Source: an uncultured virus (IMG/VR IMGVR_UViG_3300044451_000218) (lineage: Duplodnaviria > Heunggongvirae > Uroviricota > Caudoviricetes). From it: a stretch of 64,000 bases of DNA. A model generated the notes under the pieces. It saw only the letters and a program-made list of their open reading frames with translations, did no database searches and had not been told where the DNA came from. How positions within the stretch are numbered: the first letter of the stretch is position 1; every line of letters starts with the position of its first letter. The stretch is taken from the IMG/VR virus record IMGVR_UViG_3300044451_000218. One strand, 5' to 3'. Positions 29,551 through 61,638 of this stretch are shown in pieces. The position numbers and the translations under genes are program-made.

Positions 29551-29697
29551 TTTCTGGAAACAAGAGCGGCGTTTTACGCCGCTCTTGTCATGTCTTTTCT
29601 TGGGTCGGGAAAAACTTTGGCGCAATTTCGGAGACGGCGGATTCCTGTGCGTATCGGTAGTGTGGACACGACGATCACAACCCAAACGGAGCGAGCC

Positions 29698-30810
29698 ATG
29701 AGCCGCACGACCACTTTCCGCAACCAGAGCTACAACGTCATCGCCTACCCGTTGAGCCAGATCATCGGCACCGACAACTGCCGTCGTCCCTGCCCGATGC
29801 TGTGGAACCTCGGCCTCGATCCGTGGGAGGCGTACCGCCAAGTCATCAGTGACGACCTTGCCGAAGTGCGGAAGGGCGTGGCGGTTCTGGAACAGTCGCC
29901 CCGGTTCTGCGAGATGGCGGCGACCCTCAAAGACGACACCCAACTTCAGGCCATCGGCCTTCGCAGCTACCGCGCCCGCGCCGGCAAGGTGGAAGGCGAG
30001 CAGCAGTACGAAGACCGCGCGGCCCTCTCGTTCGGCAACGGCCGGTTGTTCGGAATGGCGTTGCTGGAAGGGCGGCGGAAGCTGGCCCTCGCGGACGGCG
30101 AGAAGGTCAGCAAGACCCCGCTCACCATCGACGCGATCCTGATGCGTCTGACGCGGGAAGAGAGCTACGAGTTGAGCATCATCGAGAACGACAAGCGTTC
30201 CGAGATGGATGACCTCGACTGGGGTCTGCTGTTCGACCGCGACCTCAAGACGGTCAACCCGCAAACCAAGAAGCTGCACACGATCAAGGAAGTCGCGGAG
30301 AAGCGGGGCAAGAACTACCACTGGGTTCGCGGCCGTGCGGCTCTGCCGTACCTGCCGGCCGAAATGCTCGCCGAGATCACCGACTGGGACAAGGTGAACA
30401 TTGACGCCCTCTGCCAAACGGCGTTGACGTACAAGGCGGGCGCGAAGCAGGACGCGGTCGTGGATCAGGGCGAAGCCCCCGCGACTAGCACCGTGCCGAC
30501 CAACAAGACTTCCGATGCGGTCGCGATCCTGTCGATGGACTCGGACGGCGAAGAAACGCCCTCGACCGGGACCGGGAACGAGCCGAAGAACGAAGGCGAA
30601 GGCGACAAGGAAACCGTCGTCCAGACCCCGGAGCGGAAGTCGCGGTTGCCGCGTTCGGTTCAGCCGAAGAAGCGTCGGACGGTGATGACGATGAAGGAAA
30701 TGGGCGAGTTCTTCGCCGAACAGGAAGACGACGCGGCGAAGGCGATCATCGCGCAGTGCATGAAGATGACCGTCGAAGAGGCGAAAGCTTACGCCGAAAC
30801 GCTGAACTGA
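29698..30810 (+). CDS. ParB/Spo0J-like protein
   Basis: LQAIGLR, FGNGRL (cf. GxRR), IENDKRSEM (cf. ENxxRxDL), HTH TIKEVAEKRGKNYHWV. Confidence 0.6.
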   Translation: MSRTTTFRNQSYNVIAYPLSQIIGTDNCRRPCPMLWNLGLDPWEAYRQVISDDLAEVRKGVAVLEQSPRFCEMAATLKDDTQLQAIGLRSYRARAGKVEGEQQYEDRAALSFGNGRLFGMALLEGRRKLALADGEKVSKTPLTIDAILMRLTREESYELSIIENDKRSEMDDLDWGLLFDRDLKTVNPQTKKLHTIKEVAEKRGKNYHWVRGRAALPYLPAEMLAEITDWDKVNIDALCQTALTYKAGAKQDAVVDQGEAPATSTVPTNKTSDAVAILSMDSDGEETPSTGTGNEPKNEGEGDKETVVQTPERKSRLPRSVQPKKRRTVMTMKEMGEFFAEQEDDAAKAIIAQCMKMTVEEAKAYAETLN

Positions 30811-30954
30811 CACGCAATTTCGGAGACAAGCGGAAACCCCGCTTGTCTCTAGTGTTGCCCAAAGAATCGCCCGGCTCTCGCGTATCACTCTTGACGGCAC
30901 TAAGCTGTCCGCGTAAACTGGGTCAGTTGTAAAGACTACAAACCGGAGAATGCC

Positions 30955-31956
30955 ATGACGGACTTCGACGTGATCGTCCCGCACAAGTCGGTCAGCAGCG
31001 AACGCCTCGGCGAGTGCTGTGAGATCATGATTCGCGGCAACGACGCTTACCGCAAGTGGATGCCGAACATCACCCGGCGTCGGAGTCGCGAGTGCCGCGA
31101 CCTGATCGTCAAGGGCAAGAGCGACGAGGTTCTGAAGTACATTCCGGCCGAGCGGCACGCCGAGTTCAAGGCCGATCTGCCGGTGATCTGCAACGTCGAG
31201 TCCGTGATGAACGACTTGCTCGGCCACCACGTCAGGATGATCGTCAAACTCGCAACCCGCTGGTCAAAGACCAACGAGGGCGAGAAGTCGGCGAAGCGGT
31301 CCTACTACGACGGCGGCGATCTGGCGAGCGAAGGGTTCATCGCCATGTTCGACGCCATCCGCAACTACAACCGGGACCACATCAAGTTCGTGACCTACGC
31401 TTGGACCACTGTGAACCGCCGGATGTTCGCCTCCCTCATGGCGACTTCCCCCATGTCTTGCTTCACGCGGCAAGAGCAGAAGATGCTCAAGAACGCCGTC
31501 AAGAAGCAGTTGGAAACCGGGAACCGCAATCTGGCGGATGCGGTCGCGGGCGGTGTCGTGACGGGCGACCAAGCCGCGCTGGTGCGGGAAATGCTCACGA
31601 TCAAGGTGGTTCTGGCGTCCCGTCTGGAAGAGTCGATGGGACCGGACAGCGAGGGGTTCGACTTCACCAGCATGCGGGAAGGCGTCTCTACCGACCGTTC
31701 GGGGCAGCCCAACGATGCTTGGGGGTTGTACGACTTCATGGAACGTGCGGAACTGGACGACTGCGAGCAGGACGTGCTGTTGTCGAGCCTCACGCCCTTC
31801 CGGGGCTGGCAGGCCGAATGCTCCACGCGGCACAACCTGTCGCGAACCTCCGTCCACAACATTCTGCAACGGGCGTGCAACAAGATTCGGCACGTTGCCG
31901 GTCTGCGCGAAACCGACGCCAACATCGCCCAGTTGATGGTGTCGATGTCTGACTAA
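30955..31956 (+). CDS. Sigma70-family RNA polymerase sigma factor
   Basis: Region 2 DLASEGFIAMFDAIRNYNRDHIKFVTYAWTTV; region 4 LSRTSVHNILQRACNKIR. Confidence 0.85.
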   Translation: MTDFDVIVPHKSVSSERLGECCEIMIRGNDAYRKWMPNITRRRSRECRDLIVKGKSDEVLKYIPAERHAEFKADLPVICNVESVMNDLLGHHVRMIVKLATRWSKTNEGEKSAKRSYYDGGDLASEGFIAMFDAIRNYNRDHIKFVTYAWTTVNRRMFASLMATSPMSCFTRQEQKMLKNAVKKQLETGNRNLADAVAGGVVTGDQAALVREMLTIKVVLASRLEESMGPDSEGFDFTSMREGVSTDRSGQPNDAWGLYDFMERAELDDCEQDVLLSSLTPFRGWQAECSTRHNLSRTSVHNILQRACNKIRHVAGLRETDANIAQLMVSMSD

Positions 31957-32047
31957 GAAATTGTCTCATGGAATGAGGGCGCAATTCCAGAGACTTCGCC
32001 CTAGACTGTTTGTTAGTAGCGTCGGCATACCCTAACAGGAGTTCGAG

Positions 32048-35000
32048 ATGAACGAGCAACCCTACTTCGGCTGGTACTCTCAAGAAGCGGCCGAAAACTA
32101 CGGTAGCGTGATCTACGTCAAAGACGGTGTCAACATCGAATGCACTACCGTCGCCAAAGACCCGAACTATCAGTACGGGTTCAAGGACGCCGTGTTCCTC
32201 GGCGAAGTCGGCCAGTACAGCCACAAGGGGCGGCACGGCACCAACGAACCACGCCAGTTCACGCCGCTACGCGAATTCGATCCCCCGTTCACGCTCAAGA
32301 GCCACCTCAACTACCCGGTTATCGCGCCGGAAAAGGTTCAGGAGTTCATCGACAAGCTCAACGCGAGCGGCTTCACCTTCGACAAGTCGCTCGCCGACGT
32401 GAAGAAGGTACAGGTTCAAGAAGAATGCGATCAGCCGACCGTTCTGGCGGTCGAGGCCAACGGCGACACGGTCGTCGTTTCGGGAGGCAAGTGATGAACC
32501 TCGCCGACCTTCGAGCCGCCCGCGACGAAACAGCCGTCGCACACACGCTGCTCCGCGACCAGATGAGTAACGAGATTAGCCAGCGGCTCGAAGAGGCGAA
32601 AAGACAGATCAGCAGGGAAGTTCACGACAAGTACAACGTCGAACTGGAACGGGCCTTCAAAGCCCGAACAGAAGCGTTCACGGCCTGCCAGAAGGCCGAG
32701 GTCGCGGCTGCTGCGGAAAACGCCCCGGTTCCGGTCGGCACCAAGCTGATCGGTTGGGGATACCCCAAGTACGCCGGCTACGGGGCCAAGCGTGAGGCTC
32801 AGGTTACTGGTGTGCTGGAGGTATATTCCAACAGCACACAGGTGCAGGCCAACGCCCGCCGGAAGATGATGCTGTCGCCCGGCGTTTACATTGTTCGGTT
32901 GCTCAAGAAGGACAACACGCCCGGCGCGATTGTCGAACGCTACGGCGTCGGCAAATACGTCTGGCTCCCCGAAGGCGAAACCCCGAAAGAGGGCAAGTGA
33001 TGGTTCGCACACTGGCACAAGAAGGCCGCGCACCGACAGAGGCTCACTACCTCTCCGACCACGGCAAACCGCTCGAAATGTCGAACGGGTTGTACAAGCG
33101 GGTGATCCCGTTGAAAGAGGTCGCGGCGACCGGCCACTACTCCGATATGGCGAAGCTTGCCAAGATCTTCAATCACGAAGTCTTGGAAGACAATCACGGG
33201 ACGTGGCGGTGGCGGCGGAACCTCCTGACGACATGGGTTTTTGAACACGGGCCGTTCCACACGCCCTCAAACACGTCCGACGCCACCGACCACAAAGAGC
33301 CGTGGGCGCGGCCCACGAAGCAGTATCGCGGGACCATCGACCTCAACAACCTGTGGACCGACTTCCACAACGGAATGTTCTCGCTCGAAGAGATGATGAA
33401 GTTCTACATGGAGATCGGGTACTCGCTCTGTGGTTACGCGGAGGTCTTCGGCCAACGCGAGGCGTTCGAGTTCGGACTGCCCGACGCCAAGAAGCCGAAA
33501 GGGAACCGCGACAGTTACACCGAAACGCTGATCGACTACGTCGCTCGCGTCCACAAGGGGAAGGTACTCAGTCTGTGACGCCATGAACGAATTCATCTAC
33601 GACAAGATCTTCATTTTGAATGGAGATCAAACCCTCCCCGACGATCTGGCGGCGTTGACGGTCGCTGCTGTCAACGCCGCCTCTGATTTGAAGCTGACCC
33701 AAGTTCCCAGTTTCGATGACGTGAAGCGAGAAGACGATGGCGACTTCTACACGGCAGCCAACTCCGCGAAGGAAGAAAACCTGTATGTCGCGACTGTCGG
33801 CGTGGCGTGGTTCAAAGACCGGCGCGGCCTCAAGCACGTTCGTGTGATCGGTGCGACGGTGAAGTCCAAGTCGTGGAAGTCGAACCGCCTGTGGCCCGCC
33901 CACCTCGTGCCGGCCGAGGTCGTCTACCCAGGAGTTCGTTGGGACGGCAGCGGGTACACCCTCCACTGCAAGTGCGGCCGACAAATGGCGTGCGAAGCCC
34001 CGCGTTGGAACGGCCGGACCTGTGAAATCTGTCAGGAGTTGGAGCAGTATGCGAAGGACAACGACGGGGCCGAGGTGTATTTGCCCGCGCAAAAGCGGAG
34101 ACAGAAATAGGTGTGCTTGTTATGGGTGTCCCCATGAGGTAGAGAGATGTCTGCTGTAAACAAGAACGTCCTGACGATCCGCTACATCGGCCCCGACGAC
34201 GCACACGAGTACGTCGTTCAACGCGGCGATAAAATGTTCTGGAGCGGCTTCAACTGGGTGAAAACCATTGACTCCGCGAAGGTGTTCACCGACCACAAGG
34301 CGGCGCAAGCCACGGTCGCGGCCCTGATGCACCAGCGGCACAAGGGTAAGCCGAGCCGCAAGTTCAAGTTGAACGTCACCGTCACCCTGACCGACGAAAA
34401 CGTTCAGAACATTCCGGCCTCCTCGCTCGCCGCGTGGTTGCACGCCGCGCTGCGGCTGGACATCGAGAACTTGATCTACGGCGACGGCCCGACCGCCGAC
34501 AGCTACGTCAAGGCACGGATCGAGATGTCCTCGTTCCAAGAAACCCCGGAGTGAGCAATGGTTGCCGTCAACATGTCCAATTTCGGGTTCGACGGCGACC
34601 GGCCGTTCACGAAGGAAGACGCCCTCAACTTCGAGGGCGAGAACGTGGCTGTCAAACTGTTTGATTCGGGGCTTTCTCGCATCTGCGAGGGCGTCCTGAG
34701 CGAAGTCACTGACACGACGATCAAGGTCGGTGACGAAGTCCTCCTCAACGAGTGCGTCCGCAAAGTCACCTTCAAGGATTAAGTCATGCCCGCCAAGAAG
34801 CCCGCCAAAGAAGTCGATCCGCTGGACGATTTCCGCAAGAAGATGAACCGTGAAAACCGCGCCAACAAGAAAGCGTTGGATGGCCTGAAGGCCAACAAGC
34901 ACTTCAATGCTGAGACGGTCATGGCCGAGCTTTTCGCCGGTCTGGAATGCGGCTCCCTTCACATCGGTTGGGCGTTAGACAAGTTCTGGGGTCTGAAGGT

Positions 35001-35586
35001 CGCGGAGACGATGCCCAAGCTGCAAAAGATCTACGACGAGGCCGTGAAGCGGAACTACACCCGCGAGAACAACCTGTCCTTCAACGACATGGACGACAAG
35101 CTGTTCGTCATGCCGCACGACCAGTATTGTGTCCTCTGCCACGAGTTGCAGAGTTCCAACTACGTCTACGTCTGGGAACGGAACGCGCCGTCCAAGTTCC
35201 AGAAACTGCACGTCCGGCGTTACTTCGACGTACTGAAGGTCGAAGACAAGTTCGACAAGCAGGAAGAAGCCGAGTTCAAGAAAAAGGTTCGTGAGAAGGG
35301 CAAGCGTGCGGGGATCATCGCCGCGCAACGGTTCGTTGAGAACTACGCCGACGACTACCCGGAAAATCCGTACCCGAAGCGGCTCTCGCTGGACAGCTAC
35401 ATCAAGGCCGGCTTCGAGATGAAGTACGGCGACTGCCGTGACGAGGGCTACATCCTGACGTGGGACCAGTTCCGCGACTCGGTTGATCGGTCGTACTACG
35501 AACACAGTCGGATCGAAGCAGTCCTCGACTGCTACATTCCGAGCATCGAATACGCACTCTTTGAAGAAGGGCGGGAAGAAGAATGA
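32048..35586 (+). other. Run of hypothetical ORFs (32048-32494, 32494-33000, 32997-33578, 33583-34110, 34147-34554, 34558-34782, 34786-35586)
   Basis: Contiguous coupled ORFs; no family recognised. Confidence 0.6.
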
Positions 35587-36356
35587 AGCTCACATTCGCC
35601 GGTGTCGGTTCGGCCTTCACCGACAGCCGTTACTGGCAATCGAACATGTTCTTCACCTCGAAGCAGGGGAAGAGATTGATGATCGATTGCGGCGGTGATG
35701 CCCGGTTCAGTTTCGGCGAACACGGCGCTACCAACCGCAACATCGGGGATTGGTCGGATGGCGTTTACATCAGCCACCTTCACGCCGACCACATCGGCGG
35801 GCTGGAGTGGTACGCCTTCTGCACCTACTTCAATCCCAACGTGTCGCGGCCCAAGTTGTTCATCGTGGACGAACTGGTCGATCCGCTGTGGGAGAGCTTG
35901 AAGGGCGGGCTGGCCTCGCTGGAAGGCAAGGTCATGACGCTCGAAGACTTCTTCGACGTGCGTGAGTTGCACATCAACAGCAGCTTCGTCTGGGAGGAAC
36001 TGAACTTCACCCCGATTCAGACCGTTCACATTATGAACGGCATGGGGATCGTGCCTTCTTACGGGTTGCTCGTCAAAGAAAACGGCAACCCCGCGACCGC
36101 GTTCATCACCACGGACACGCAATACTGTCCGCGCCAGATCGAGCGATTCTACGAACGCTCCAGCATCATCTTCCACGACGCCGAAACCGGCGCGAGACGG
36201 AGCGGCATTCACGCATACTACGACGACCTCAAGACGTTGCAAGCCGAACACAAGGCGAAGATGTGGTTGTATCACTACAACCCCGACCCGACCCAAGAAG
36301 CCGAGGCAGACGGGTTCAAAGGGTTTGTGAAAAAGGGACAAACCTTCGAGATCTAA
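35583..36356 (+). CDS. Metallo-beta-lactamase-fold hydrolase (RNase Z/BN-like)
   Basis: GVGSAF, LMIDCG, YISHLHADHIGG, FITTDT, IFHDAE, MWLYHY. Confidence 0.88.
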   Translation: MKLTFAGVGSAFTDSRYWQSNMFFTSKQGKRLMIDCGGDARFSFGEHGATNRNIGDWSDGVYISHLHADHIGGLEWYAFCTYFNPNVSRPKLFIVDELVDPLWESLKGGLASLEGKVMTLEDFFDVRELHINSSFVWEELNFTPIQTVHIMNGMGIVPSYGLLVKENGNPATAFITTDTQYCPRQIERFYERSSIIFHDAETGARRSGIHAYYDDLKTLQAEHKAKMWLYHYNPDPTQEAEADGFKGFVKKGQTFEI

Positions 36357-36401
36357 AGTCTTCTCGGTCTATACTGACGGTGAAGAAAGAGGACTCAAAA
36401 C

Positions 36402-36797
36402 ATGATCAGCCCAAAAGAACTCCGCAAACTGACTGACGAAGCTCTGGTCAACGCCGAGAAGGAACGAACTCGGCAGGCCGAGGAGCAGTTGCGGATTGCC
36501 GAAGAGAACAAAAAGAAACGCGAGAACCGCGCCGCGACGATTCTGGCCGAGATCCCCGCAAAAGCTCGCGAGGCGGCGGTGAAGGGGAGTTGTTCGGTCG
36601 CCATCATGCGACTAGAATACCCTGAGTTCGACAAACCGTCCGGCACCCACTTCGCCCTTTGCGAACCGCAATGGTTGAAGGGCGCGGCCAAGATCGTGTG
36701 GGATCACTGCGTCGAGGCCAATCTGAAGCCGAGGCTGGAACACTGGCACGACGGCGTGGGCATCCACGAGAGCTTCGACATCATCGTACAATGGTAG
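36402..36797 (+). CDS. hypothetical protein
   Basis: ORF with RBS after promoter motif. Confidence 0.65.
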   Translation: MISPKELRKLTDEALVNAEKERTRQAEEQLRIAEENKKKRENRAATILAEIPAKAREAAVKGSCSVAIMRLEYPEFDKPSGTHFALCEPQWLKGAAKIVWDHCVEANLKPRLEHWHDGVGIHESFDIIVQW

Positions 36798-36804
36798 TCT
36801 TCTT

Positions 36805-37437
36805 GAAGGGTAGGCCACAACCAAAGGGTGGCCGGCTCGGTAAGAGCCGCAGTCGGGAATCTTGCCCGGTCTGGCATACATCGTGATAGACATAGTATGC
36901 CCACGAGGAGCCGCGCGAAAACTGGTGTATAACACTGGTGGCCTAGACGAATCCAAAGTCGAGAAATTGGGACGGTGGTAACGTCGTAAGCGTTACCGCA
37001 CCAACGCGAAAAATGGCCCGGTCGCTCTGGGGAACAGGGCGGCGACGAGCAAAGGTCGAAAACGCCGTCCGTGGTTGACGTAAAACTAGCCCTTCCTGGC
37101 GCGAAGTGAAACTCGTTGTGTTTTCTGGTTGTCGCTACAACCGGCCCCATTTCAACAGTTGGGGGCAAATTAACTGGCCCTTTTCAATGGTTGGGGTAAC
37201 TAACTAGCCCTTTTAAGCGGGTTGGGGCAAGCTCAGGAATCTGAGCGGACTAACTGCCGATCTTGTCAGTTCTCCGTAACTGAACTGACCCGATGACGCC
37301 GGATCGTGAAGCCGTCCAGCTAGAAAACCCGTCATGCGTGTGGTTCGCCATTGCATGGGGATGCTGGCCCTTGAAATAGATCGTTCCGGCGTTTGACGCA
37401 CTCATCGCCCCGGTCAGAAATGGCCGGGGCGTTTTCT
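36805..37437 (+). ncRNA. Candidate large (~630 nt) structured non-coding RNA
   Basis: ~700-nt gap with no credible ORF, many stem-loops, long-range TAGGCCAC/GTGGCCTA pairing, terminator at the end. Confidence 0.65.
37406..37437 (+). terminator. Rho-independent terminator
   Basis: CGCCCCGGTCA-GAAA-TGGCCGGGGCG-TTTTCT. Confidence 0.8.
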
Positions 37438-37510
37438 TGTTCCAAAAAACTCGGACAGCCGCCCGTAGTCACCGTTAAGAACCAACGTCGCCCCCAACAA
37501 GGTACTCAAG

Positions 37511-38263
37511 ATGAGCAGCATCCACATCACGAGCTTCGTTCGCCGCCAAACCCCGCAGAGCGGTTTCTCGCACTGGACGATCAGTGACGACGAACTGATC
37601 TCTCGCGTGGTGGCGGGCCTCCCCAACGCCAAGCGGGGCTACCGCGACGGCGTGTTACTCGTGCCGGTCAAGCCGGACGGGTTCTTCGCCGGCCTCGTCA
37701 AACTCAAGGACGGGGACAAGCTCGTCGGCGAGTACAAAGCACGCAGACCCGGCGAAGACCCACGCAAGTCAACATACGCCCTCGACGGCGTCAAGATGCC
37801 CGCCGTGAGCGTGTACGTCGTCCTCTACGCTCACGACGTGTTGGCCGAGAAGAACGAAAACGAAACCGACGCGGCGTTCGAGGTCGTGTCCGTCAACGCG
37901 AACGTGACGGAAGAGGAAGCTCCGATTCCGACCGGCGCTCTCATCGCCAACCACTTCGGGCTGTCCGGTGGCACGAACACCAACATGACGGACAGCGAGT
38001 TCGTCGCGTTGCTCCGCAAGAGCGTGGAGTTCTGGAAGGACAAGGCTTTGGCCTGTCCGCAGGAACTGAAGCCCGACGCAGTCGCAGTTGATATTTTCAA
38101 CTGCATGTTCCGTGGGTGGGCTGCTGGCGACTTCCGCCTCGCGTCCGGCATCAGCTATGGGCAAGTGATCGAGTGGACGAAGTCGCAGGGCGGCGATCCC
38201 ACACCGCTACTCAGGCGAATGGCGGAACTCGAAGAGTTGGCTAAGAACTACAAAGACAGCTAA
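37511..38263 (+). CDS. DUF3228-like protein
   Basis: FVRRQ...GYRDGVLLVPV...YKARRPGEDPR...VVLYAHDVL. Confidence 0.6.
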   Translation: MSSIHITSFVRRQTPQSGFSHWTISDDELISRVVAGLPNAKRGYRDGVLLVPVKPDGFFAGLVKLKDGDKLVGEYKARRPGEDPRKSTYALDGVKMPAVSVYVVLYAHDVLAEKNENETDAAFEVVSVNANVTEEEAPIPTGALIANHFGLSGGTNTNMTDSEFVALLRKSVEFWKDKALACPQELKPDAVAVDIFNCMFRGWAAGDFRLASGISYGQVIEWTKSQGGDPTPLLRRMAELEELAKNYKDS

Positions 38264-38317
38264 AAGACGGCTCGACAATTTAGCCGCAGGAAACACATCC
38301 TGCGGCTAAATAGTTTC

Positions 38318-38893
38318 ATGAAAACCTTCGCAGAGTGGCTCGCCGTGGAAGCTCGCGCACCCAAGAACGAGTTGTTGCAATACGCACCCAACAAGAAGTA
38401 TTTCACCATTTCTCCGCAATGGCACGACTTCTCTATTTGGTTTGAAAAGCAACCGCCGTCCGACGCCGAACTCAGGATGATGGCCGAAATCATCAGCGGT
38501 CACGGATTCCCGACCAGAGTTGCCAAGACGGGCGAGCAATGGCCCTACAGCGGTGACAGGCGGTACGACGATCTGGCTGACGAAATCCGTCACAAGTGGG
38601 ACGTTGCAGTTGATGACGCCGTCGAGGGCGTCCGAAAGTATCGCGCCGTTGTCGGCAGGAAGATCTCACACGGCACTCACCACGACGGCGGCGAGCGGAT
38701 GCCATTCTATAACGACCAGATCGCCACCATCGTACACAACCTGCGATACGTCAAAGACGACCCCGAAAAAGCCAAGAAGATGTTCGACGCAATGGACCGC
38801 AACACCAAGTTCATTCTCGTTCACGACGCCGGTATGTTCACCTCGGACGGCGCATTGACTCCAGTCGCATCACAGTACCTCCGAGGCTACTAA
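38318..38893 (+). CDS. hypothetical, possible virion-internal protein
   Basis: MKTFAEWLAVE start; TAAATA 5 nt upstream. Confidence 0.6.
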   Translation: MKTFAEWLAVEARAPKNELLQYAPNKKYFTISPQWHDFSIWFEKQPPSDAELRMMAEIISGHGFPTRVAKTGEQWPYSGDRRYDDLADEIRHKWDVAVDDAVEGVRKYRAVVGRKISHGTHHDGGERMPFYNDQIATIVHNLRYVKDDPEKAKKMFDAMDRNTKFILVHDAGMFTSDGALTPVASQYLRGY

Positions 38894-39849
38894 CTAAGAT
38901 GAGGGATTGCCTTCTCGCCCACCCACGCGAGAATCTTGGTATCACCACGCTCTACCGCCTCGATCCAGCGGTGTTTGCCTTCGATAACGACCACCGGCCC
39001 TTTCACTGTGTAGGTGGGGTGTTTGCTCAACACTTCGTTCGCTTCCACGATGATCGGCCCTAAGCTTTGGCTGCACGGCAGGTACTGCGGTCCTGTCGGT
39101 TTGAGTTTGGCGGTTTCCACTTCCATCAACTTGAACTTCTTGCTCACCACCAGATCAATCGGCACCGGGTCCAGCATTCCACGCACCTGATGCTCGTCAA
39201 CTTCGGCTGCGTACTGGAAGAAACCCCACGAAACGGCTTGTTTGAAGAAGTCCTTCATCTTCCCGAACATCACGAACTTCTGGTCGTCGTCCTCCACGAT
39301 TCCGTCTTTGGCCGCGAACGCGGTCATGGGATTCTTGTTTTCCGATTTTAGCAGCCGGCTCAGGTACGGGAAAACGGCGGGCGGCACCAGTGATCGCGCC
39401 GCTTCGTAGCCTTTGTTGATGCACACGTCTTTGACGGTACTGGATCGGATGTTCCTGATCTTGTCCGGGCCGAAGACGTAGTAGAAGTTGAGTTGCGGGC
39501 CGTGCGCCCGCATGTTCCGCTCGATGGCCTGCTCGTACACCAGATCGCGAGCATCGCGAACCCCACGAACGAGACAGATGTCGTTAAAATGAATGCCGCG
39601 TTCTGCGACCTGTTTCTTGCACCAGTCAACTGTCGTGGGGGTGTCAAGTATCTGGACGTAGGCTTTGGTGTGGGAGATTGATAGGGAGAGCATGTCCGCG
39701 CGTTCGCGGAGGGTGAAGGTGTAGTGCTTGGCGGGGTTGGGGCCAATGACCGCCTGAACCTCGTCGGCCATCTTGCAGGCTTGTTCGATGAGGTAAACGT
39801 GGCCGAGTTGTACGGGATCGTAACTGCCGGCGACGACAGCGATTTTCAT
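38890..39849 (-). CDS. coaD: Phosphopantetheine adenylyltransferase-like domain fused to a ParB/Srx-like domain
   Basis: AVVAGSYDPVQLGH, NPAKHYTFTLRER, LVRGVRDARDLVYE, IRSSTVK; C-terminal VVIEGKHRW. Confidence 0.75.
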   Translation of the reverse strand: MKIAVVAGSYDPVQLGHVYLIEQACKMADEVQAVIGPNPAKHYTFTLRERADMLSLSISHTKAYVQILDTPTTVDWCKKQVAERGIHFNDICLVRGVRDARDLVYEQAIERNMRAHGPQLNFYYVFGPDKIRNIRSSTVKDVCINKGYEAARSLVPPAVFPYLSRLLKSENKNPMTAFAAKDGIVEDDDQKFVMFGKMKDFFKQAVSWGFFQYAAEVDEHQVRGMLDPVPIDLVVSKKFKLMEVETAKLKPTGPQYLPCSQSLGPIIVEANEVLSKHPTYTVKGPVVVIEGKHRWIEAVERGDTKILAWVGEKAIPHLS

Positions 39850-41192
39850 CTTATTCCTCGAACTGGTTTACAATGTGACCTAGCCGGCCTATTTTGATTT
39901 TACCACGAACGGGGGTTCCCATGACGACGACTGACGCGATTCGGAAGGCTCTCACCGACTATCGTCGGGATCAAGTAGCGGTCATTCACCAGATGGCCCG
40001 CGAACGCGGCATGGACGAACGCGACCTCTCCGTCGCGCAGTACCGCTACTTGATTCTCGAAGAGGCGTCGTGGTCCGAGAAGGCGTCCCGCGCCACCTGC
40101 CTCCCGGCAGACGAGCGGGAGATGGAGAGCCGCTACGCCGCGAAACTTCGCTCCATCGCCTCCAACATCACAACCAGCGAGAAGGATCATGGGCTTCAAC
40201 ACGACGGTGGTCGTTCTGAACGACGTTCTGGGCGAAATCGAGAAGGACGAAAAGTTCGGCGAGAAGCTCGCTGACGCGATCAAGTCGTTGTCCGGCCCCG
40301 ACCCCGTTTCCATGTTGGGTGGCGGGGTCAAGGTGCTGGCAACGCACCACAACAGCAACGTAGCTGTTGTGGCGGTCGGCGGCAACTACGGAACGGTTCT
40401 CGCGTGGGGACCGGACGTTTCACACCACACCTACGAAGGTCAAGAAAAGCTTCTCAAGGCTCTGGCCGAGAAGCTCGGATACCGCCTTACCAAGAAGCCA
40501 TGAAATACATCGTCTGGGATCTGATTTCTGACTACGACGGCTTCTGGCAAACCGAGTGCGCCACTTGGGAAGAAGCTGTCGCGTGCGTCCGTGCGGCCTG
40601 CAAAGAAAACAAAAAGGCTCTCGCCCAGTTCAAGAAGTGGCAAGAGGGCAAGATCGCCGAAATCCGCGTCATGGGCAAGGGGTTCGGCAAGTCCGAAGCC
40701 ACCGAAGTCAACGTCTTCGTCACCAGCAAAAAACTCACCGAGCCGCAAGAATGAATCTCGCGTTCTTCAACTTCTCCGTCAAGATGACCGACGCCGACAT
40801 TCGGCGCTCGGTCTACGAGGCAGCCGTCATCACCCAGAAGATGGGCGAAGGCGTACTCGTCAGCATCGACGGATACGACAACGACCCCCGCGACCTCTGG
40901 AACATCCCCGAAGTCGTCGTCTTTGCCAAGCGATTGGTCGCCAACGGCGTGTGCAGCGTAGCCGTCGTTTCGACCATCCTCGACCCGAAGTTCGACGGGC
41001 CGGGTGGCAGACCGTTCGGCGGCTTCGAGGTCTGGTTGCTGCTGGTGGCCGAGAAGGTGGGCGTCCCGTACAACGCGGCACCCCCATCGGTCCCGCTGCC
41101 GGTCGCCAACGGCAAGAAGTAAAATGACCGCTGACGTGCGGACATATCATTGTGTCCGCACGTCCTTTGTCACATTTACATGGGTGCCAATC

Positions 41193-42329
41193 ATGCCTGC
41201 TTCAGTCAAGCCCCCGTTGGTTTCCGAGCTTCAATACTTCAGCCGCATTTGCGCCCAAGCAATCGGTCGCGTCAAGCCGGAAAACCTGTTCTTCTTCTCG
41301 ATCCAGAACATCAACCAGATCCACCGCGATGCACTGCTCAACACGAGCGTGTTGCTGGACACGTTGCCGCTCGGCGAGAACTGTGCCACGGTTCTGTCCA
41401 CGTCAATTCGCAAGTCCCCCTTCAATCAGCTTTCGATCAGGCTGATGTATCAGAAAGACACGGGCGTCAAGTATGCTCTGCTCTACTACCTGAACAACTT
41501 CGGACAGGCCCAATACTATCTGGTCGTCCAACAAACCAAGTTCAGGAAACTTTACCAGTACGCAATCAGGACCGGGCGGAACAACCTGAAGTTGGAGCCG
41601 CCGGTTCTTTACGACAACGTGATCGACAAGATCAACGACCTCGTCATGGGCGTCAAGAAGGACCGGGTCTTCAAAGACTACGGCATCCGCCTGAATCGCG
41701 GTCTGATCTTCTACGGCCCACCGGGTAACGGCAAGACGTTCGCGAGCAGGTACATTCAACAGCTTTGCGCCAAACACCTGATACCCTGCGGCGTGTACAA
41801 GACCGTTGACATCGAAGTCGCGTACAAGGAAAACAGACTGGCCCACGTTTTCAACGTGGCACACGTTCAAATCTTCGATGACGTGGACATCAACCTGTTC
41901 GTTCGTCGGGGTGCGAACACGGTAACGTCTTCGATCCTGTCCGCAATGGACGGCGTGACGACCAGCCAGAAAGCGTGTCTTCGGTTCTTCACGACCAACG
42001 AAGACATCGACAGCATGGACTACGCTTTCCTTCGCCCCGGACGCATCGACACCTGCGTCAAGATTGACAAGCCCGACCAGAAGTTGACGGCCATCTTTTG
42101 GGAGCGGTGGAAGAAGAAACCGAAAGAACTGGTGGTCGAAAAGCTGGTGAAGGCTTCGGCCGATATGTCCTTCGCGCAGATGGAGTTTCTGAAGATCATC
42201 CTCGTTCAGAACTTCCAGCAGAACAAGCAGTGGGACATTACGAAAGCGGTCGAGATGCTGAAGGCGTCTTATTCGAGGCGGCGCGGCAAGAACGCCGGGT
42301 TCCGCCCCGACACCTGTGTGGAAGAATAA
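41193..42329 (+). CDS. AAA+ ATPase
   Basis: RGLIFYGPPGNGKT, IFDDVD, FTTN, FLRPGRID. Confidence 0.88.
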   Translation: MPASVKPPLVSELQYFSRICAQAIGRVKPENLFFFSIQNINQIHRDALLNTSVLLDTLPLGENCATVLSTSIRKSPFNQLSIRLMYQKDTGVKYALLYYLNNFGQAQYYLVVQQTKFRKLYQYAIRTGRNNLKLEPPVLYDNVIDKINDLVMGVKKDRVFKDYGIRLNRGLIFYGPPGNGKTFASRYIQQLCAKHLIPCGVYKTVDIEVAYKENRLAHVFNVAHVQIFDDVDINLFVRRGANTVTSSILSAMDGVTTSQKACLRFFTTNEDIDSMDYAFLRPGRIDTCVKIDKPDQKLTAIFWERWKKKPKELVVEKLVKASADMSFAQMEFLKIILVQNFQQNKQWDITKAVEMLKASYSRRRGKNAGFRPDTCVEE

Positions 42330-42893
42330 AACCGCCGCTTCCCTATCACGATTTTTTTTGATATGATAGGGTGGGGTTGAAGGCGGTTTACACAAAGGTG
42401 TGTTATGAAGATGTCATGGGACGATTTCCGTTATCTGGGTTACATCCTCTTCGGCGTGGGCATCGCCACGCTCGCCAAGTCGGGCGGCATGGCCTGCGCG
42501 GGCTACGAGATCTCGCCCACTCAAACAGGCATCTTCGGTGCTGTCTGTTTGATCTTCGGTAGCTCGTGGTTGTCTCGTACCGACAAGAAGTGAGATCATG
42601 AGCAAGCACAAGAAAAAGTTCGGCGTCTACCACTGGGACACGTTCGACAACACGAGCCTGTTCCTAAAGGACTTCGACACCGAAGAAGAGGCCGAAGCGT
42701 TCGTCCACGAACGGTATGCCGGTCGCATCCGAAGTACCGGCGCGGATCGCGTGGACATCGTTGAAGGTCCGGGGCATGTGGTTCAATCTTTTTCTGTAAG
42801 TTGATCCTGAAAAATTACTGCGAATTCAATTTCGCATCTTTACAACAGGCGCAGGAAACTTTAGACTCTAAGAACACTCAACGGAGGTTCGTC

Positions 42894-43379
42894 ATGAGTT
42901 TCGAGGAAGTCCTGCGGCAGAAGATCAGCGGCACCAAGTCCAAAGTCGGCCGCAGCGTGCTGAAGGTCGCTCTGGGCGAGTTCCAGCAGAAGAACGCCAA
43001 CGGAAAGGCTACCGAACAGGACGGCCTTTCCGTTGTCGAGAAGATCATCAACGGCAACCGCGAAACGCTCGCCGTTTTGAAACAAGAAGACGCCCGTCGC
43101 GCCGACCTCGAAGAAGAGATCGTTACCCTCTCGTCGCTCCTCCCGACCTACCTGACGGCGGATGAGGTGTTGGAGAAGGTCCGCGCCGACAGTTCGCTGT
43201 TCGGGGAAGTCAATACAGTGCTGAGTCAAGGCGACAAAACCCGTCCGGTCGAAGACCCTGCGAACGCCAAGCTGGTCGGTCGCGCGACGGGTTCGGTCGT
43301 CAAGTTCTTCAAGTCGGCAAACATTGCCGTGAAGGGCGACACCGTCAAAGAAGCCCTGTCGCGGTTGTTTCGTGAATAG
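42894..43379 (+). CDS. GatB/YqeY domain protein
   Basis: VLKVALGEFQ...EEEIVTLSSLLPTYLTADEV...VKGDTVK. Confidence 0.7.
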   Translation: MSFEEVLRQKISGTKSKVGRSVLKVALGEFQQKNANGKATEQDGLSVVEKIINGNRETLAVLKQEDARRADLEEEIVTLSSLLPTYLTADEVLEKVRADSSLFGEVNTVLSQGDKTRPVEDPANAKLVGRATGSVVKFFKSANIAVKGDTVKEALSRLFRE

Positions 43380-44136
43380 GAGCTAACATGTCCACCATCG
43401 CTGACACGACCGAGTTCTCTCTCGACATCGGTGTCAACCCCGGTTTCTTCCACGACAACGCGGTTAAAGACCCGTTGAAGGTGGTCGCAGACCTGTGGCA
43501 GAAGTTCGCGGAAGAGATCTTCAAGGACTGTAACGTCTACGTCGCGGCGGTGATCTGCCCCACGAAAACCGTGTACAACACGGCGTGGGGCTGCCCGGCC
43601 GGTGGCGAAGACACCATCACCATCCACGGCGTTCGGAACCCGGAATTCACTCCGAACGAGGACGTGTGGAAGGTGACGGTGGGCCGCGTGGCGATTCGGT
43701 TGGCGAAAGAACTTCAACAATCTACGGCCTACTTGGTGTTCAGGAAGGTCGAGTTGTTGTACCTCAAGGCGAGTGCCTAGTCATGCCGAAGCCGAACCCG
43801 CTGAACGAGATCCCCATCGCGCAGATCCTGTACCTGCACAAGATGTTCGGGGTCCAGCAAAAGGCAGAAAATCACGTTTCAATCGATTTTCTGCCCTATA
43901 CTGTGCAGATCAAGTGGCTCGTCGCGGAGATGCTGAAGCGTTTCCCGAAGAGTCCGTGGACCGAAAAGCTCGTTTACCGTACCCTCATCCGGCTGCGGAA
44001 AGCGGACTTGGTCGGGAAGACCGAACGCGGCGGCAACGAACAGCCCCCGCAGTTCCCCGACGATAACGACCACGGCGGCGAGAACGAAAAACTCGTCTTC
44101 CAAGAAGAAGGCGAAGTCTAACCAAGAAGGTGTCCC

Positions 44137-45540
44137 ATGTTCAAGTGGCTCAAGCGATGGTTCGGTATGGACGACGAACCCGTCCGAAGCGACGAGTTCG
44201 TCCGTCAAAAACAAGAATTCGACAAGCACAAGGCTCGCGTTGTCGAAACCTCAAGGACCGTCTCGAAGCCGGTTTCCATCCCGACGATTTCAACCGCCCC
44301 GAAGCCGCAATTACAGCCCTACGTCGGCCACGACGAAGCTGTCATCGTGGCCTGCTTCTTCAACCCCCAGAACTCGCCGTACCGCCTTCTGGCCTTCCAG
44401 AAGTGGTACAGCAGCATCAAGCACCTGAACCACCGCATCATCGAGTGCCTCATCGGTGACGCCGAGAGCCAACTGCCGGAAAGCCCGTACATCACGCAGG
44501 TGACGACGGACTCCCTGCTGTGGCACAAGGAATCGCTGCTGAACAAGGTGATCTCCGAACTGCCCTTCCAGTACAAGTACGTCTTCTGGCTGGACACGGA
44601 CGTACTTTTCACCAACCCGAACTGGTTGGTCGAGGGGGTCGAGAAGCTCCAGACGGCCAAGATCATTCAGCCGTTCGAGTATTGCGTCCACCTCCAGAAG
44701 AACCAGACGGCTCCCGACTTCGATGTCAACCAGTACCGCTCGCTGGTCAACGACGCGAAACGTCGGCACCCGATGCTGTGGCGCAGCTTCCTCGCGAACT
44801 GGGTGACGTGCCGCGAAGCCGCTCTGAACCACAACTACGACGTTCACGGTCACGTCGGGTTCGCGTGGGGCGCACGCCGCGAAGTTCTCGACCGCACTCA
44901 ACTGTACGACAAGGCGTTGATCGGTGGTGCGGACCACATCATCGCGCACGCGGCAACCGGGCAGATCCCGTGCAACTGTATCAGCCGGGCGTTCACCCTC
45001 GACATCGACGGGGTGGCCGAGTGGTCGAAGGATTTCTTCGACTCGGTCGGCGGCAAGGTGGACTTCGTGAGGGGCGACCTGTACCACATCTGGCACGGCG
45101 AGGTGAAGGACCGCGAGTACCTGAAGCGGATCGTGGAGTTCGCCCCGGAGATCCAGTTCATCACGCGGCGGGACGCCAACGGGCTGTGGATCTACGACGG
45201 CAGCAACCCGTACATGAAGCGGTACTACCGCAAGCGGGAAGTCACCGTCTACGAGCCGGAAGAGTTCGGCGGGTTCGACGCCGGGTTCTTCGAGGAGATG
45301 GGCTACCAACTGGCCGATCTCGCGATGACCTTCGGTCAGCCGACCTGTGACAACACCGGCGTTACCGACGAGCCGCAAACGTCGTATAATGACGGCAGTC
45401 AGACGGTTTCCGATCCCGAACCGTCGATTCCGTCAGCACCGGCCGCAGAACCCGTCCAGTCGTTCACGCCGGCATACGAGCCGGGCCACTGGGACTACAC
45501 GCCGCCGGGCGCGGAAGACCGGGGATCGACCTTCTCGTAA
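44137..45540 (+). CDS. GT-A fold glycosyltransferase-like protein
   Basis: LWHKESLLN, YVFWLDTDVLF, GFAWGARR, IGGADH, YHIWHG. Confidence 0.7.
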   Translation: MFKWLKRWFGMDDEPVRSDEFVRQKQEFDKHKARVVETSRTVSKPVSIPTISTAPKPQLQPYVGHDEAVIVACFFNPQNSPYRLLAFQKWYSSIKHLNHRIIECLIGDAESQLPESPYITQVTTDSLLWHKESLLNKVISELPFQYKYVFWLDTDVLFTNPNWLVEGVEKLQTAKIIQPFEYCVHLQKNQTAPDFDVNQYRSLVNDAKRRHPMLWRSFLANWVTCREAALNHNYDVHGHVGFAWGARREVLDRTQLYDKALIGGADHIIAHAATGQIPCNCISRAFTLDIDGVAEWSKDFFDSVGGKVDFVRGDLYHIWHGEVKDREYLKRIVEFAPEIQFITRRDANGLWIYDGSNPYMKRYYRKREVTVYEPEEFGGFDAGFFEEMGYQLADLAMTFGQPTCDNTGVTDEPQTSYNDGSQTVSDPEPSIPSAPAAEPVQSFTPAYEPGHWDYTPPGAEDRGSTFS

Positions 45541-46723: not shown

Positions 46724-46875
46724 ACGCGGCTGGTGCAAAGAGACGGGCTAACCACCCGTTGCTAGACACGATCCACAAATTAGCACGCCGACCAGCAAGC
46801 CATAAAGAGCGGGGATGTATGGTTCCCGCAGTCGGAGATCCCCAGTGGAGAATCGGGAGCCTGGGGGCCGCGCGT
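46724..46875 (+). ncRNA. Candidate ~150-nt structured RNA
   Basis: Closing CGCGGC/GCCGCG stem enclosing TGGT/ACCA, ACGGG/CCCGT, TGCTA/TAGCA, GCGGG/CCCGC and CCCCAG/CTGGGG helices. Confidence 0.5.
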
Positions 46876-61637: not shown

Positions 61638-61638
61638 A

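What the first reader, a model, noticed from the sequence alone, without database searches (positions are those of the whole stretch)
36805..37437. Large (~630 nt) highly structured non-coding RNA candidate
Seen: the largest ORF-free gap in a dense genome, filled with helices, several using G-U pairs consistent with the + strand. Examples: GGCTC/GAGCC, GGCATAC/GTATGCC, CTGGTGT/ACACTGG, GGTAACG/CGTTACC, GTCGCTCTG/CAGGGCGGC, GGTTGT/ACAACC, GCTCAG/CTGAGC, GTCAGTTC/GAACTGAC. Long-range pairs TAGGCCAC(36811)/GTGGCCTA(36938), GGACGG/CCGTCC and GACGCCGGA/TCCGGCGTT, then a terminator. The size is comparable to ROOL/OLE/GOLLD-type RNAs but I cannot match it to a known class, so it may be new.
Basis: partly seen in the sequence, partly recalled or inferred. 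Interest (0 to 1): 0.8.

Follow-up and report, generated by a model that had tools for sequence, protein, structure and literature searches.

The report
Orphan non-coding gap, huge phage
A 713-base stretch between two genes of a lake-water giant phage is truly non-coding and ends in a strong transcription stop signal, but nothing shows it to be one large folded RNA, and no relative of it could be found.

Summary
The stretch 36798-37510 is real non-coding DNA. GC content is flat across codon positions (0.55 in each), while neighbouring genes show GC3 of 0.71-0.86. No ORF has a Shine-Dalgarno site, and none opens under TAG or TGA recoding. The 154-aa minus-strand ORF has no homologue.

"Highly structured" is not supported beyond the local background. 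Sliding folding z-scores in the gap (mean -1.6) equal those of the upstream coding DNA (-1.7). Hairpin counts are no higher than in coding controls once a 3-unit tandem repeat is set aside. Long-range 8-mers are at chance level. Only the two end modules fold better than shuffles, and better on the + strand.

No Rfam family matches (GOLLD, ROOL, OLE and tmRNA included). No homologue was found in phage, plasmid, IMG/VR, JGI-metagenome or GTDB searches, so covariation could not be tested. No RNA run was listed. Relatives of the downstream gene carry small genes in this position instead.

Best reading: a long 3'UTR or leader region, possibly yielding a terminator-proximal small RNA. A new large RNA class remains possible but unsupported.

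The parts
36346..36375 (+). Sigma-70-like promoter candidate (TCGAGA, 18-nt spacer, TATACT) upstream of the 131-aa gene. It is the only promoter-like site found in 36000-38500.
   Evidence: Similar TATACT -10 boxes occur in other intergenic spacers of the window. This is a consensus match only.
36402..36797 (+). Upstream gene of 131 aa with no known family. It has an N-terminal coiled-coil-like part and ends in TAG.
   Evidence: GC by codon position is 0.61/0.39/0.74. No Pfam, PHROG, PADLOC or NCBIfam match. The Atlas lists unnamed ~140-aa look-alike clusters.
36798..37405 (+). Non-coding body of the gap.
   Evidence: Flat GC at codon positions in all frames. No + strand ORF of 10 aa or more has a Shine-Dalgarno motif. 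No long ORF opens under TAG=Q or table 4.
36800..36965 (+). 5' module. Two stacked closing helices (36800-36806 with 36959-36965; 36811-36816 with 36940-36945) enclose hairpins at 36834-36848, 36873-36901 and 36922-36938.
   Evidence: Pair probabilities are 0.71-0.98. MFE z is -2.62 on + (1 of 200 shuffles as good) and -1.21 on - (26 of 200).
36975..37043 (+). Two stable local hairpins. One is 36975-36999, a 10-bp stem capped by a GUAA loop. The other is 37021-37043, with two G-U pairs.
   Evidence: Pair probabilities are 0.72-0.99 and 0.49-0.78. The loop types are read from the sequence.
37139..37233 (+). Three tandem units of 33, 30 and 32 nt, each AACYRGCCC..TTT..GGTTGGGG. A weaker fourth AACTAGCCC sits at 37084.
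   Evidence: TRF gives period 30, 2.2 copies and 79% matches. The units share only an invariant 3-bp CCC/GGG stem with no covariation. MFE z is -0.52 on + and -0.42 on -.
37231..37289 (+). Two stable hairpins: GCUCAG/CUGAGC (37231-37246) and GUCAGUUC/GAACUGAC (37265-37289).
   Evidence: Pair probabilities are 0.91-1.0.
37295..37393 (+). 3' module. A 9-bp closing helix (GACGCCGGA/UCCGGCGUU) encloses a stepped hairpin capped by a UUCG loop at 37344-37347.
   Evidence: Pair probability is 0.83-1.0. With the terminator, z is -3.30 on + (0 of 200) and -2.02 on -. A 151-nt contig of run X9 is alike over 37305-37383 only. Its two itemised differences (37344 T>C, 37346 C>T) turn UUCG into CUUG.
37406..37440 (+). 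Intrinsic terminator: 11-bp stem with 9 G-C pairs, a GAAA loop and a TTTTCTTGTT tail.
   Evidence: rank it among the three strongest + strand terminator-like sites in 28000-47999. The weak Rfam matches (Spot_42 at 24.5 bits, PyrG leader at 25.2 bits) rest on this hairpin.
37511..38263 (+). Downstream gene of 250 aa with a DUF3228-type fold of unknown function. It starts 70 nt after the terminator, and no promoter-like site lies between.
   Evidence: Pfam DUF3228 at E 1e-4, below the cut-off. The AlphaFold model has pLDDT 79 and matches 2pd0 and 4fbd at E about 1e-11. One search found 12 relative loci at 48-73% identity. Promoter scan.

Best explanation
The gap is a non-coding, plus-strand transcribed tail of the transcription unit that starts at the promoter-like site 36346-36375. 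That unit runs through the 131-aa gene and stops at the intrinsic terminator 37406-37440. The gap is therefore a roughly 610-nt 3'UTR, and at the same time the leader of the next gene.

It is a string of separate elements rather than one globally folded RNA:
- a 5' multi-hairpin module (36800-36965);
- a few stable stand-alone hairpins;
- a 3-unit tandem sequence repeat (37139-37233);
- a compact 3' module (37295-37393) placed directly before the terminator.

The likeliest product with a function of its own is a terminator-proximal, 3'UTR-derived small RNA of about 150 nt (37295-37440). The hairpins upstream would mainly shape mRNA stability or terminator read-through.

Shown: the stretch is non-coding; it has a terminator; the end modules are locally stable and favour the + strand; relatives lack it.
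Inferred: transcription, the transcript's 5' end, processing, and any function.
For: - The stretch is non-coding by codon-position GC. It has no Shine-Dalgarno-led ORF on + and no ORF under recoding.
- The minus-strand 154-aa ORF has flat GC (0.52/0.57/0.59) and no family. No homologue was found among proteins of 84-270 residues in the 5.8-billion-protein collection.
- The flanking genes lie on the + strand, and the only promoter-like site in 36000-38500 is upstream of the 131-aa gene.
- The strong terminator at 37406-37431 is one of three such + strand sites in 20 kb. Other hairpins after genes sit directly behind the stop codon.
- The end modules fold better than shuffles, and better on + than on -. 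The 5' module has z -2.62 against -1.21. The 3' module with the terminator has z -3.30 against -2.02.
- G-U-dependent hairpins number 44 on + and 25 on -.
- The middle part shows no folding signal and the long-range pairs are at chance level. This argues for separate modules rather than one fold.
- Precedent: the jumbo phage PhiKZ has a ~100-nt 3'UTR-derived and a ~180-nt 5'UTR-derived ncRNA candidate, each with two stem-loops including a terminator (PMC8545117, passages of section 12 read).
Against: - There is no transcript evidence of any kind.
- No homologue was found anywhere, so conservation is unknown.
- The folding z-scores of the modules are no better than those of many 200-nt windows of coding DNA nearby, which go down to -4.1.
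- The promoter is a 9-of-12 consensus match only.
- A 610-nt 3'UTR is unusually long for a phage, and the reading does not explain why it is kept.
Confidence: 0.4

Rival explanations
1. One reading: one large (~630 nt) structured non-coding RNA of a new, lineage-restricted class with a function of its own.
For: - The size and non-coding nature are confirmed.
- 10 of the 11 quoted helices are predicted with probability 0.43 or more.
- Closing helices define modules.
- GNRA-type loops (GUAA, GAAA) and a UUCG loop cap hairpins (read).
- No Rfam family matches.
- The only itemised natural variation changes UUCG to CUUG within a predicted tetraloop. That these are both stable tetraloop classes is recalled, not tested.
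Against: - Overall structure is no greater than in flanking coding DNA.
- Long-range pairs are at chance level.
- The tandem-repeat core does not fold (z -0.5).
- No homologue exists in 12 loci with the conserved downstream gene, in the 458-kb relative, or in the phage and plasmid collections. Four exact-pattern scans of IMG/VR and GTDB contigs gave only chance-level matches.
- The variant comes from one 151-nt contig at depth 2.9.
Confidence: 0.15
2. Functionless spacer. The DNA was left by gene loss, recombination or slippage in a hypervariable part of a huge phage genome, and the terminator belongs to the upstream gene's unit.
For: - Relatives fill the same position with small genes of 60-100 aa, and synteny around the conserved gene is nil.
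- No homologue of the gap was found anywhere.
- Folding statistics are ordinary.
- Tandem units 73-84% alike could arise by slippage.
Against: - No trace of codon periodicity remains, so it is not a recently decayed gene of this genome's codon style.
- tblastx against the relatives' small genes finds nothing.
- The rest of the window is densely coding.
- The sequence was identical in contigs of several lake runs. These may be one population, so this is weak evidence.
Confidence: 0.18
3. Conditional terminator or antitermination leader. RNA elements in the gap govern read-through of the terminator at 37406-37440 into the DUF3228-like gene and the genes behind it.
For: - No promoter-like site lies between the terminator and 37511, so downstream expression may need read-through.
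- The 3' module abuts the terminator.
- A 12-nt stretch (37355-37366) is 92% complementary to codons 2-6 of the downstream gene.
Against: - No riboswitch or leader family matches.
- None of the 12 relatives of the downstream gene has a comparable leader.
- The phage encodes sigma-like proteins, so the sigma-70-type promoter scan may miss its promoters.
- Seven inverted repeats of this size occur in the 851 nt examined, so the complementarity may be chance.
Confidence: 0.12
4. DNA-level site. The three phased direct repeats (33- and 30-bp spacing, about three helical turns) bind a phage protein, as an operator array, packaging or replication site.
For: - The units conserve sequence, not pairing. 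The consensus stem is only 3 invariant pairs with no covariation.
- There is no folding signal on either strand.
- The motif AACTRGCCC clusters here: 6 of the 42 window matches with up to 1 mismatch, and 3 of the 4 exact ones.
- The most AT-rich 40 nt of the gap (62.5% AT) lies in the repeats.
Against: - No DnaA-box-like site with up to 1 mismatch was found, and there is no markedly AT-rich unwinding region.
- No replication or packaging gene was recognised next to it.
- There is no clear GC-skew turn at this place.
- The repeat is absent from the 458-kb relative.
Confidence: 0.08
5. RNA decoy for counter-defence. The tandem units would mimic a host RNA, such as a type III antitoxin repeat array or a CRISPR repeat. 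They sit 783 nt (37139 minus 36356) downstream of an Apyc1-like anti-defence gene.
For: - Tandem ~30-nt units lie upstream of a terminator.
- The Apyc1-like gene at 35583-36356 scores 78 bits against a cut-off of 50.
- The unit length is in the range of antitoxin and CRISPR repeats. That range is recalled, not tested.
Against: - The units are only 73-84% alike, and 170 nt separate them from the terminator.
- The downstream protein has a DUF3228 fold, not a ToxN/AbiQ-type one, and has no PADLOC match.
- No CRISPR array lies in the window.
- The unit pattern occurs only singly in 17 unrelated genomes. My own rough estimate of the chance expectation, assuming equal base frequencies, is about 35.
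Confidence: 0.05

Closest known systems
UTR-derived ncRNA candidates of jumbo phage PhiKZ (3'UTR of PHIKZ298, ~100 nt; 5'UTR of p40, ~180 nt). PMC8545117, passages of section 12 read.
   Same: Both are non-coding stretches beside genes of a very large phage. Both have stem-loops, the last of which is a Rho-independent terminator, and neither has a Shine-Dalgarno-led small ORF.
   Different: Those RNAs were seen by Grad-seq and Northern blot and are 100-180 nt long. Here no transcript is known, the non-coding stretch is 713 nt, and there is no sequence relation.
GOLLD, ROOL and OLE large ornate bacterial and phage RNAs (Rfam models; bioRxiv 10.1101/2024.12.08.627333, search listing and abstract start only).
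   Same: The size class is similar (about 600-800 nt). Phage and lake-metagenome origin is shared with GOLLD.
   Different: No match to any of their covariance models even at E up to 10. There is no family of homologues, no covariation, and no excess of structure over the background.
Type III toxin-antitoxin antitoxin RNA arrays (ToxI-like) and phage pseudo-ToxI repeats (recalled, not read here).
   Same: Tandem ~30-36-nt repeats lie in a non-coding stretch, followed by a terminator and then a gene.
   Different: The repeats here are diverged and 170 nt from the terminator. The gene behind has a DUF3228 fold, and its 12 relatives lack repeats upstream.
tmRNA. It was considered because the window encodes SmpB at 16577-17113.
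   Same: Both are structured non-coding RNAs of several hundred nt, and the partner protein is encoded in the same genome piece.
   Different: ARAGORN finds no tmRNA and no Rfam tmRNA model matches. On reading, I saw no T-arm or CCA-ending acceptor before the terminator.
Cis-acting antitermination RNAs and terminator-controlling leaders such as put of phage HK022 (recalled, not read here).
   Same: Hairpin-rich RNA lies upstream of an intrinsic terminator between co-directional phage genes.
   Different: There is no sequence or model match, relatives of the downstream gene have no such leader, and read-through is untested.

Membership tests
GOLLD / ROOL / OLE / HEARO / raiA (large Rfam RNA families) | Match to the family covariance model at or near the gathering score. 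| tested here: not met
   In gathering mode the whole window gave 0 matches. At E up to 10 on 36600-37650 there were 6 weak matches, none to these families. At E up to 1 on the whole window nothing fell in the gap. Gathering mode also missed the 53.9-bit tRNA at 7144, so the E-value runs are the ones to rely on.
tmRNA | A tRNA-like domain (acceptor stem, T-arm, CCA end) and a tag reading frame, detectable by ARAGORN or the Rfam tmRNA models. | tested here: not met
   ARAGORN found only one tRNA in the window and no tmRNA. No tmRNA model matched. None of the + strand ORF peptides of 20 aa or more ends like an ssrA tag (the expected tag ending is recalled).
Type III antitoxin RNA array (ToxI-like) | Near-identical tandem repeats directly followed by a terminator and a ToxN/AbiQ/CptN-type endoribonuclease gene. 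| tested here: not met
   The units are 73-84% alike and lie 170 nt from the terminator. The downstream protein has a DUF3228 fold and no PADLOC match.
3'UTR-derived or terminator-proximal small RNA | Same strand as the upstream gene, no ORF, and a shared intrinsic terminator as the 3' end. | tested here: met
   These are sequence features only.
3'UTR-derived or terminator-proximal small RNA | A stable RNA species is detected, with a defined 5' end made by processing or an internal promoter. | not testable with these tools
   No RNA run was listed among the 13 holders, and the contigs laid cannot show RNA ends.
Structured ncRNA in general | Homologues exist whose helices are kept through compensatory changes. 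| tested here: inconclusive
   No homologue was found. The three internal repeat units show 0 compensatory pairs.
Riboswitch or attenuator leader of the downstream gene | A conserved aptamer or leader upstream of orthologous genes, with a terminator as the expression platform. | tested here: not met
   A terminator is present, but none of the 12 loci with the orthologous gene carries a similar leader, and no Rfam cis-regulatory family matches.
Iteron-type origin or protein-binding repeat array (DNA) | Phased direct repeats with an adjacent AT-rich region, initiator boxes or a cognate gene. | tested here: inconclusive
   Phased repeats are present. No DnaA-like box was found and the maximum AT content in 40 nt is 62.5%. 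No replication gene was recognised nearby.

The most novel reading that the evidence does not exclude
The stretch encodes a new, lineage-restricted large RNA of a lake huge phage. A 5' multi-helix module, three tandem protein- or RNA-binding units and a 3' module would act together. It could be a decoy or scaffold in host takeover or counter-defence, since it lies 441 nt behind an Apyc1-like gene. It would be invisible to comparative searches only because close relatives of this phage are not yet in the public collections.
Probability: 0.12. Interest if true: 0.7.

Novelty: new member of a known kind. Interest (0 to 1): 0.3.

Why it matters
Huge phages pack genes tightly, so a 713-nt non-coding stretch with a strong terminator is a sensible place to look for phage RNA biology. 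Candidates include UTR-derived small RNAs, terminator control and decoys. Little is known about any of these outside PhiKZ.

As it stands this is an orphan. There is no family, no covariation and no transcript, and its folding is ordinary for this DNA. The practical value of this check is to lower the claim from "new ROOL/GOLLD-like class" to [quoted passage not shown].

Tried and rejected
- **Known RNA family.** Rfam in gathering and E-value modes and ARAGORN found nothing in the gap. The only matches were weak, terminator-driven ones.
- **Hidden protein gene.** Rejected by several tests:
  - Table 11, TAG=Q and table 4 ORF lists.
  - Codon-position GC.
  - A Shine-Dalgarno scan.
  - Pfam and PHROGs on the minus-strand ORFs.
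  - A search of the 154-aa ORF in the 5.8-billion-protein collection, which gave no hit among proteins of 84-270 residues.
- **Pseudogene of the relatives' small genes.** tblastx found nothing; the best E was 2.0.
- **Homologues by DNA similarity.**
  - GenBank phages and plasmids: no match.
  - The 458-kb relative G001: only 14-15-nt matches, and 0 matches for the repeat unit with up to 3 mismatches.
  - The 15 loci L001-L015: no blastn match better than E 0.2 and no nhmmer hit. L036 and L037 gave nothing either.
  - L015 and L007's full records are not held, so they were not searched.
- **Homologues by exact-pattern scans.**
  - IMG/VR: 0 matches for a 25-mer and for a 21-mer. The degenerate 19-mer gave 1 single, apparently chance match (L016).
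  - GTDB genome contigs: 0 matches for the 21-mer. The degenerate 19-mer gave 17 single matches in unrelated taxa and no arrays.
- **Synteny route.**
  - The upstream 131-aa protein has no relative in IMG/VR or GenBank phages.
  - The downstream gene has 12 metagenome loci plus 1 IMG/VR locus, none with the gap.
  - The Apyc1-like gene has 4 loci at 42-43% identity, none with the gap.
- **Expression.** No RNA holder was listed.
- **Natural variation.** The contigs of 4 lake runs were identical where they covered the stretch. The exception was one 151-nt contig, alike over 37305-37383 only, so no covariation test was possible.
- **Targets or paralogues in the window.** No match longer than 13 nt.
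- **CRISPR array in the window.** None.
- **tmRNA**, prompted by SmpB: rejected.
- **Type III toxin downstream.** The protein has a DUF3228 fold instead.
- **Shared intergenic motif with L001.** The motif CCAACTAGG is not enriched in the window: 10 matches against 7.4 expected.
- **Not done.** I built no covariance model of the modules.
Full report
**Setting.** The window is a gene-dense, mostly + strand coding piece of a very large phage-like genome from lake water.
- No whole genome is held for it.
- Near-identical contigs occur in 13 lake or freshwater DNA runs.
- The only relatives found are contigs of 458-462 kb classed as viral (L001/L006 and L015). A Microcystis jumbo phage matches at 33% protein identity.
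- Recognisable genes include an Apyc1-like MBL hydrolase, an SNF2 helicase, an AAA ATPase, a Cas7-like protein, SmpB, two sigma-70-region-2 proteins and a tRNA with anticodon CUA.

**The observation: what holds.**
- In a partition-function fold of 36798-37445, 10 of the 11 listed helices have pair probabilities of 0.43-1.0. These include the long-range TAGGCCAC/GTGGCCTA (0.49-0.92) and GACGCCGGA/TCCGGCGTT (0.83-1.0). GGACGG/CCGTCC has only 0.02.
- A strong intrinsic terminator follows at 37406-37431: 11 pairs, 9 of them G-C, a GAAA loop and a TTTTCTTGTT tail. It is one of only three strong + strand sites in 28000-47999.

**The observation: the stretch is non-coding.**
- For 12 of 13 neighbouring ORFs tested, GC2 is 0.31-0.42 and GC3 is 0.71-0.86. 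The 13th, 32140-33000, is atypical at 0.71/0.51/0.59.
- The gap shows 0.54-0.56 at all three positions in all three frames.
- It is the longest run of the window without codon periodicity.
- No long ORF opens under TAG=Q or table 4.
- No + strand ORF of 10 aa or more has a Shine-Dalgarno motif.
- The minus-strand 154-aa ORF (36704-37168) has flat GC and no Pfam or PHROG match. It has no homologue among proteins of 84-270 residues.
- Three longer stretches lack a + strand ORF of 80 aa or more. One is inside a 1275-aa minus-strand UvrD helicase with a LAGLIDADG insert. One holds a 233-aa minus-strand ORF. One touches the window end.

**Is it more structured than chance?** Only weakly, and not more than its surroundings.
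- The whole 643 nt folds with z -2.76 on + and -2.38 on -, with 20 shuffles each.
- In 200-nt sliding windows, my arithmetic on the table gives these mean z-scores on +: -1.62 for the 10 windows inside the gap, -1.66 for 25 upstream coding windows, and -1.0 for 26 downstream ones. On the - strand the gap averages -1.07.
- Counting hairpins with stems of 6 or more pairs (G-U allowed), the gap has 44 on + against 26.2 ± 5.2 in shuffles (0 of 300 reach it). It has 25 on - against 21.1.
- That excess comes from the tandem repeat 37139-37233: 14 against 6.6 on +, and 0 on -.
- Without the repeat, the 5' part has 17 against 11.2 (17 of 300 reach it). The 3' part has 9 against 7.8 (120 of 300).
- Five coding controls of equal length give comparable or larger excesses, for example 51 against 34.5, reached by 1 of 300.
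- Long-range perfect 8-mers number 5 against 3.0 (66 of 300 reach it).
- Taken module by module, the ends do better:

| Module | z on + (shuffles as good) | z on - (shuffles as good) |
|---|---|---|
| 36800-36965 | -2.62 (1 of 200) | -1.21 (26 of 200) |
| 37295-37440 | -3.30 (0 of 200) | -2.02 (4 of 200) |
| 37295-37393, without the terminator | -2.18 | -1.81 |
| Repeat block 37139-37233 | -0.52 | -0.42 |

The picture is a chain of modules with a mild + strand preference, not one ornate fold.

**The tandem repeat.**
- Three units of 33, 30 and 32 nt sit at 37139-37233, each of the form AACYRGCCC..TTT..GGTTGGGG. TRF reports period 30 and 79% matches.
- A weaker AACTAGCCC lies at 37084.
- The 9-mer motif AACTRGCCC occurs 42 times in the window with up to 1 mismatch, against 18.8 expected. 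Six of those, and 3 of the 4 exact matches, lie in 37011-37291.
- Aligned, the units share only an invariant 3-pair CCC/GGG stem with no compensatory change. The consensus energy is -2.6 kcal/mol.
- They therefore conserve sequence rather than pairing. This fits either a protein-binding site on DNA or RNA, or plain duplication.

**Search for relatives.** Nothing like the gap was found.
- There was no match in GenBank phages or in plasmids at blastn sensitivity.
- The 458-kb relative gave only 14-15-nt matches and no copy of the repeat unit with up to 3 mismatches.
- Four exact-pattern scans of IMG/VR and GTDB contigs gave 0, 0, 0 and 1 match for the specific patterns.
- The degenerate unit pattern gave 17 single matches in unrelated bacteria. 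My own rough chance estimate, assuming equal base frequencies, is about 35. No locus held more than one copy.
- The downstream gene is conserved at 48-73% identity in 12 metagenome loci and one IMG/VR locus.
- In those loci the space upstream is filled with small genes of about 60-100 aa. blastn, nhmmer and tblastx of the gap against them give nothing.
- Synteny is otherwise absent.
- The upstream 131-aa gene has no relative in IMG/VR or GenBank phages.
- Four loci with a 42-43% relative of the Apyc1-like gene continue straight into other genes.
- The gap thus lies in a hypervariable region, and covariation cannot be tested.

**Natural variation and expression.**
- All 13 listed runs are DNA.
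- Contigs of four runs laid on 36300-38300 were identical where they covered the gap.
- The exception is one 151-nt contig of X9, at depth 2.9, which is alike only over 37305-37383 with 13 differences. Two of these are itemised: 37344 T>C and 37346 C>T.
- Those two fall in the 4-nt loop of a predicted hairpin, GUGG-UUCG-CCAU, with pair probability 0.87 or more. They change UUCG to CUUG.
- From recalled knowledge, both are classes of unusually stable tetraloops that replace each other in ribosomal RNA. This would be a small hint of RNA-level constraint on the + strand.
- It rests on one low-depth contig, and the tool itself warns that such a difference may be an error.
- The terminator hairpin alone also appears, with 2 differences, in abundant unrelated contigs at 114x and 127x. 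I read nothing into that.

**Neighbours.**
- The 131-aa upstream protein has unnamed look-alike clusters of about 140 aa and no family.
- The downstream protein was modelled from 11 sequences at pLDDT 79. It matches the DUF3228-type structures 2pd0 and 4fbd at E about 1e-11, and its function is unknown.
- It is not a ToxN/AbiQ-like nuclease and has no PADLOC match. This removes the type III toxin-antitoxin reading.
- SmpB in the window prompted a tmRNA test. ARAGORN and Rfam find none, and I saw no T-arm or CCA end before the terminator.

**How it most likely works.**
- The only sigma-70-like promoter candidate in 36000-38500 lies at 36346-36375, before the 131-aa gene. No such site lies in the gap or between the terminator and 37511.
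- Other hairpins after genes in this window sit directly behind the stop codon.
- The simplest reading is that transcription from about 36380 runs through the gene and the gap and stops at about 37438. The gap would then be a 610-nt 3'UTR and, through residual read-through, the leader of the next gene.
- The 3' module plus terminator (37295-37440) has the form of a 3'UTR-derived small RNA. Candidates of that kind have been shown by Grad-seq and Northern blot in the jumbo phage PhiKZ (PMC8545117, passages of section 12).
- Everything beyond the sequence features is inference.

**Verdict.**
- The feature is real: a non-coding stretch of 713 nt with a genuine terminator and an internal repeat.
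- The claim of a new large, highly structured RNA is neither refuted nor supported. It matches no known family, but it also has no relatives, no covariation, no transcript and no folding signal above that of the neighbouring genes.
- I rate it a modest lead.

Noticed in passing
window 16577-17113 (+): An SmpB gene (Pfam E 3.6e-54) sits in this phage-like contig. Neither ARAGORN nor Rfam finds a tmRNA anywhere in the 64 kb, so the partner RNA, if the phage has one, lies elsewhere or is too divergent.
   Followed up: partly
window 7144-7215 (+); L005 469-471: The window carries a tRNA with anticodon CUA, an amber suppressor by anticodon, which scores 53.9 bits on the Rfam tRNA model. TAG still ends 15 of 85 codon-bias-supported ORFs of the window. 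In relative L005 the DUF3228-like gene has an in-frame TAG at a tyrosine that is invariant in 11 aligned sequences. That is either a nonsense mutation or amber read-through in this phage group.
   Followed up: partly
window 3-3827 (-): An open-ended ORF of 1275 aa encodes a UvrD-like helicase interrupted by a LAGLIDADG, intein-like insert. The insert explains the low-GC, low-periodicity stretch at about 1900-2620, which looks ORF-free if open-ended ORFs are not listed.
   Followed up: yes
window 35583-36356 (+): An MBL-fold protein matches the anti-Pycsar Apyc1 family at 78 bits against a cut-off of 50. It also weakly resembles RNase Z at its N-terminus. It lies 441 nt upstream of the gap.
   Followed up: no
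window 60162-63150 (+): A Cas7-like protein (CT1975 family, E 6e-30) sits behind a 491-aa ORF of atypical composition. No CRISPR array lies in the window.
   Followed up: no
L001 2740-3975: In the 458-kb relative, five successive small genes each end in TGATACCAACTAGG followed by a 10-12-bp G/C-rich hairpin and a T-rich tail. This is a repeated gene-end cassette. The motif is not enriched in the window.
   Followed up: partly
window 7144-7214: Rfam gathering mode on the whole window reported 0 matches. E-value mode found this tRNA at 53.9 bits, above its gathering score of 29. The fast filters of gathering mode can therefore miss true matches here.
   Followed up: yes
window 37407-37438: The terminator hairpin alone recurs, with 2 differences, in much more abundant contigs (114x and 127x) of two lake runs, in a different context. 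It could be the host or chance similarity of G/C-rich terminators.
   Followed up: no
window 30955-31956 and 50584-50898 (+): Two proteins carry sigma-70 region 2. The phage may redirect host RNA polymerase, so a sigma-70 consensus scan may miss its own promoters.
   Followed up: no
window 7216-7272: A second T-arm-like GGTTCGATCCCC lies just after the tRNA, in a spacer that ARAGORN does not call. It may be a degenerate or unusual tRNA.
   Followed up: no
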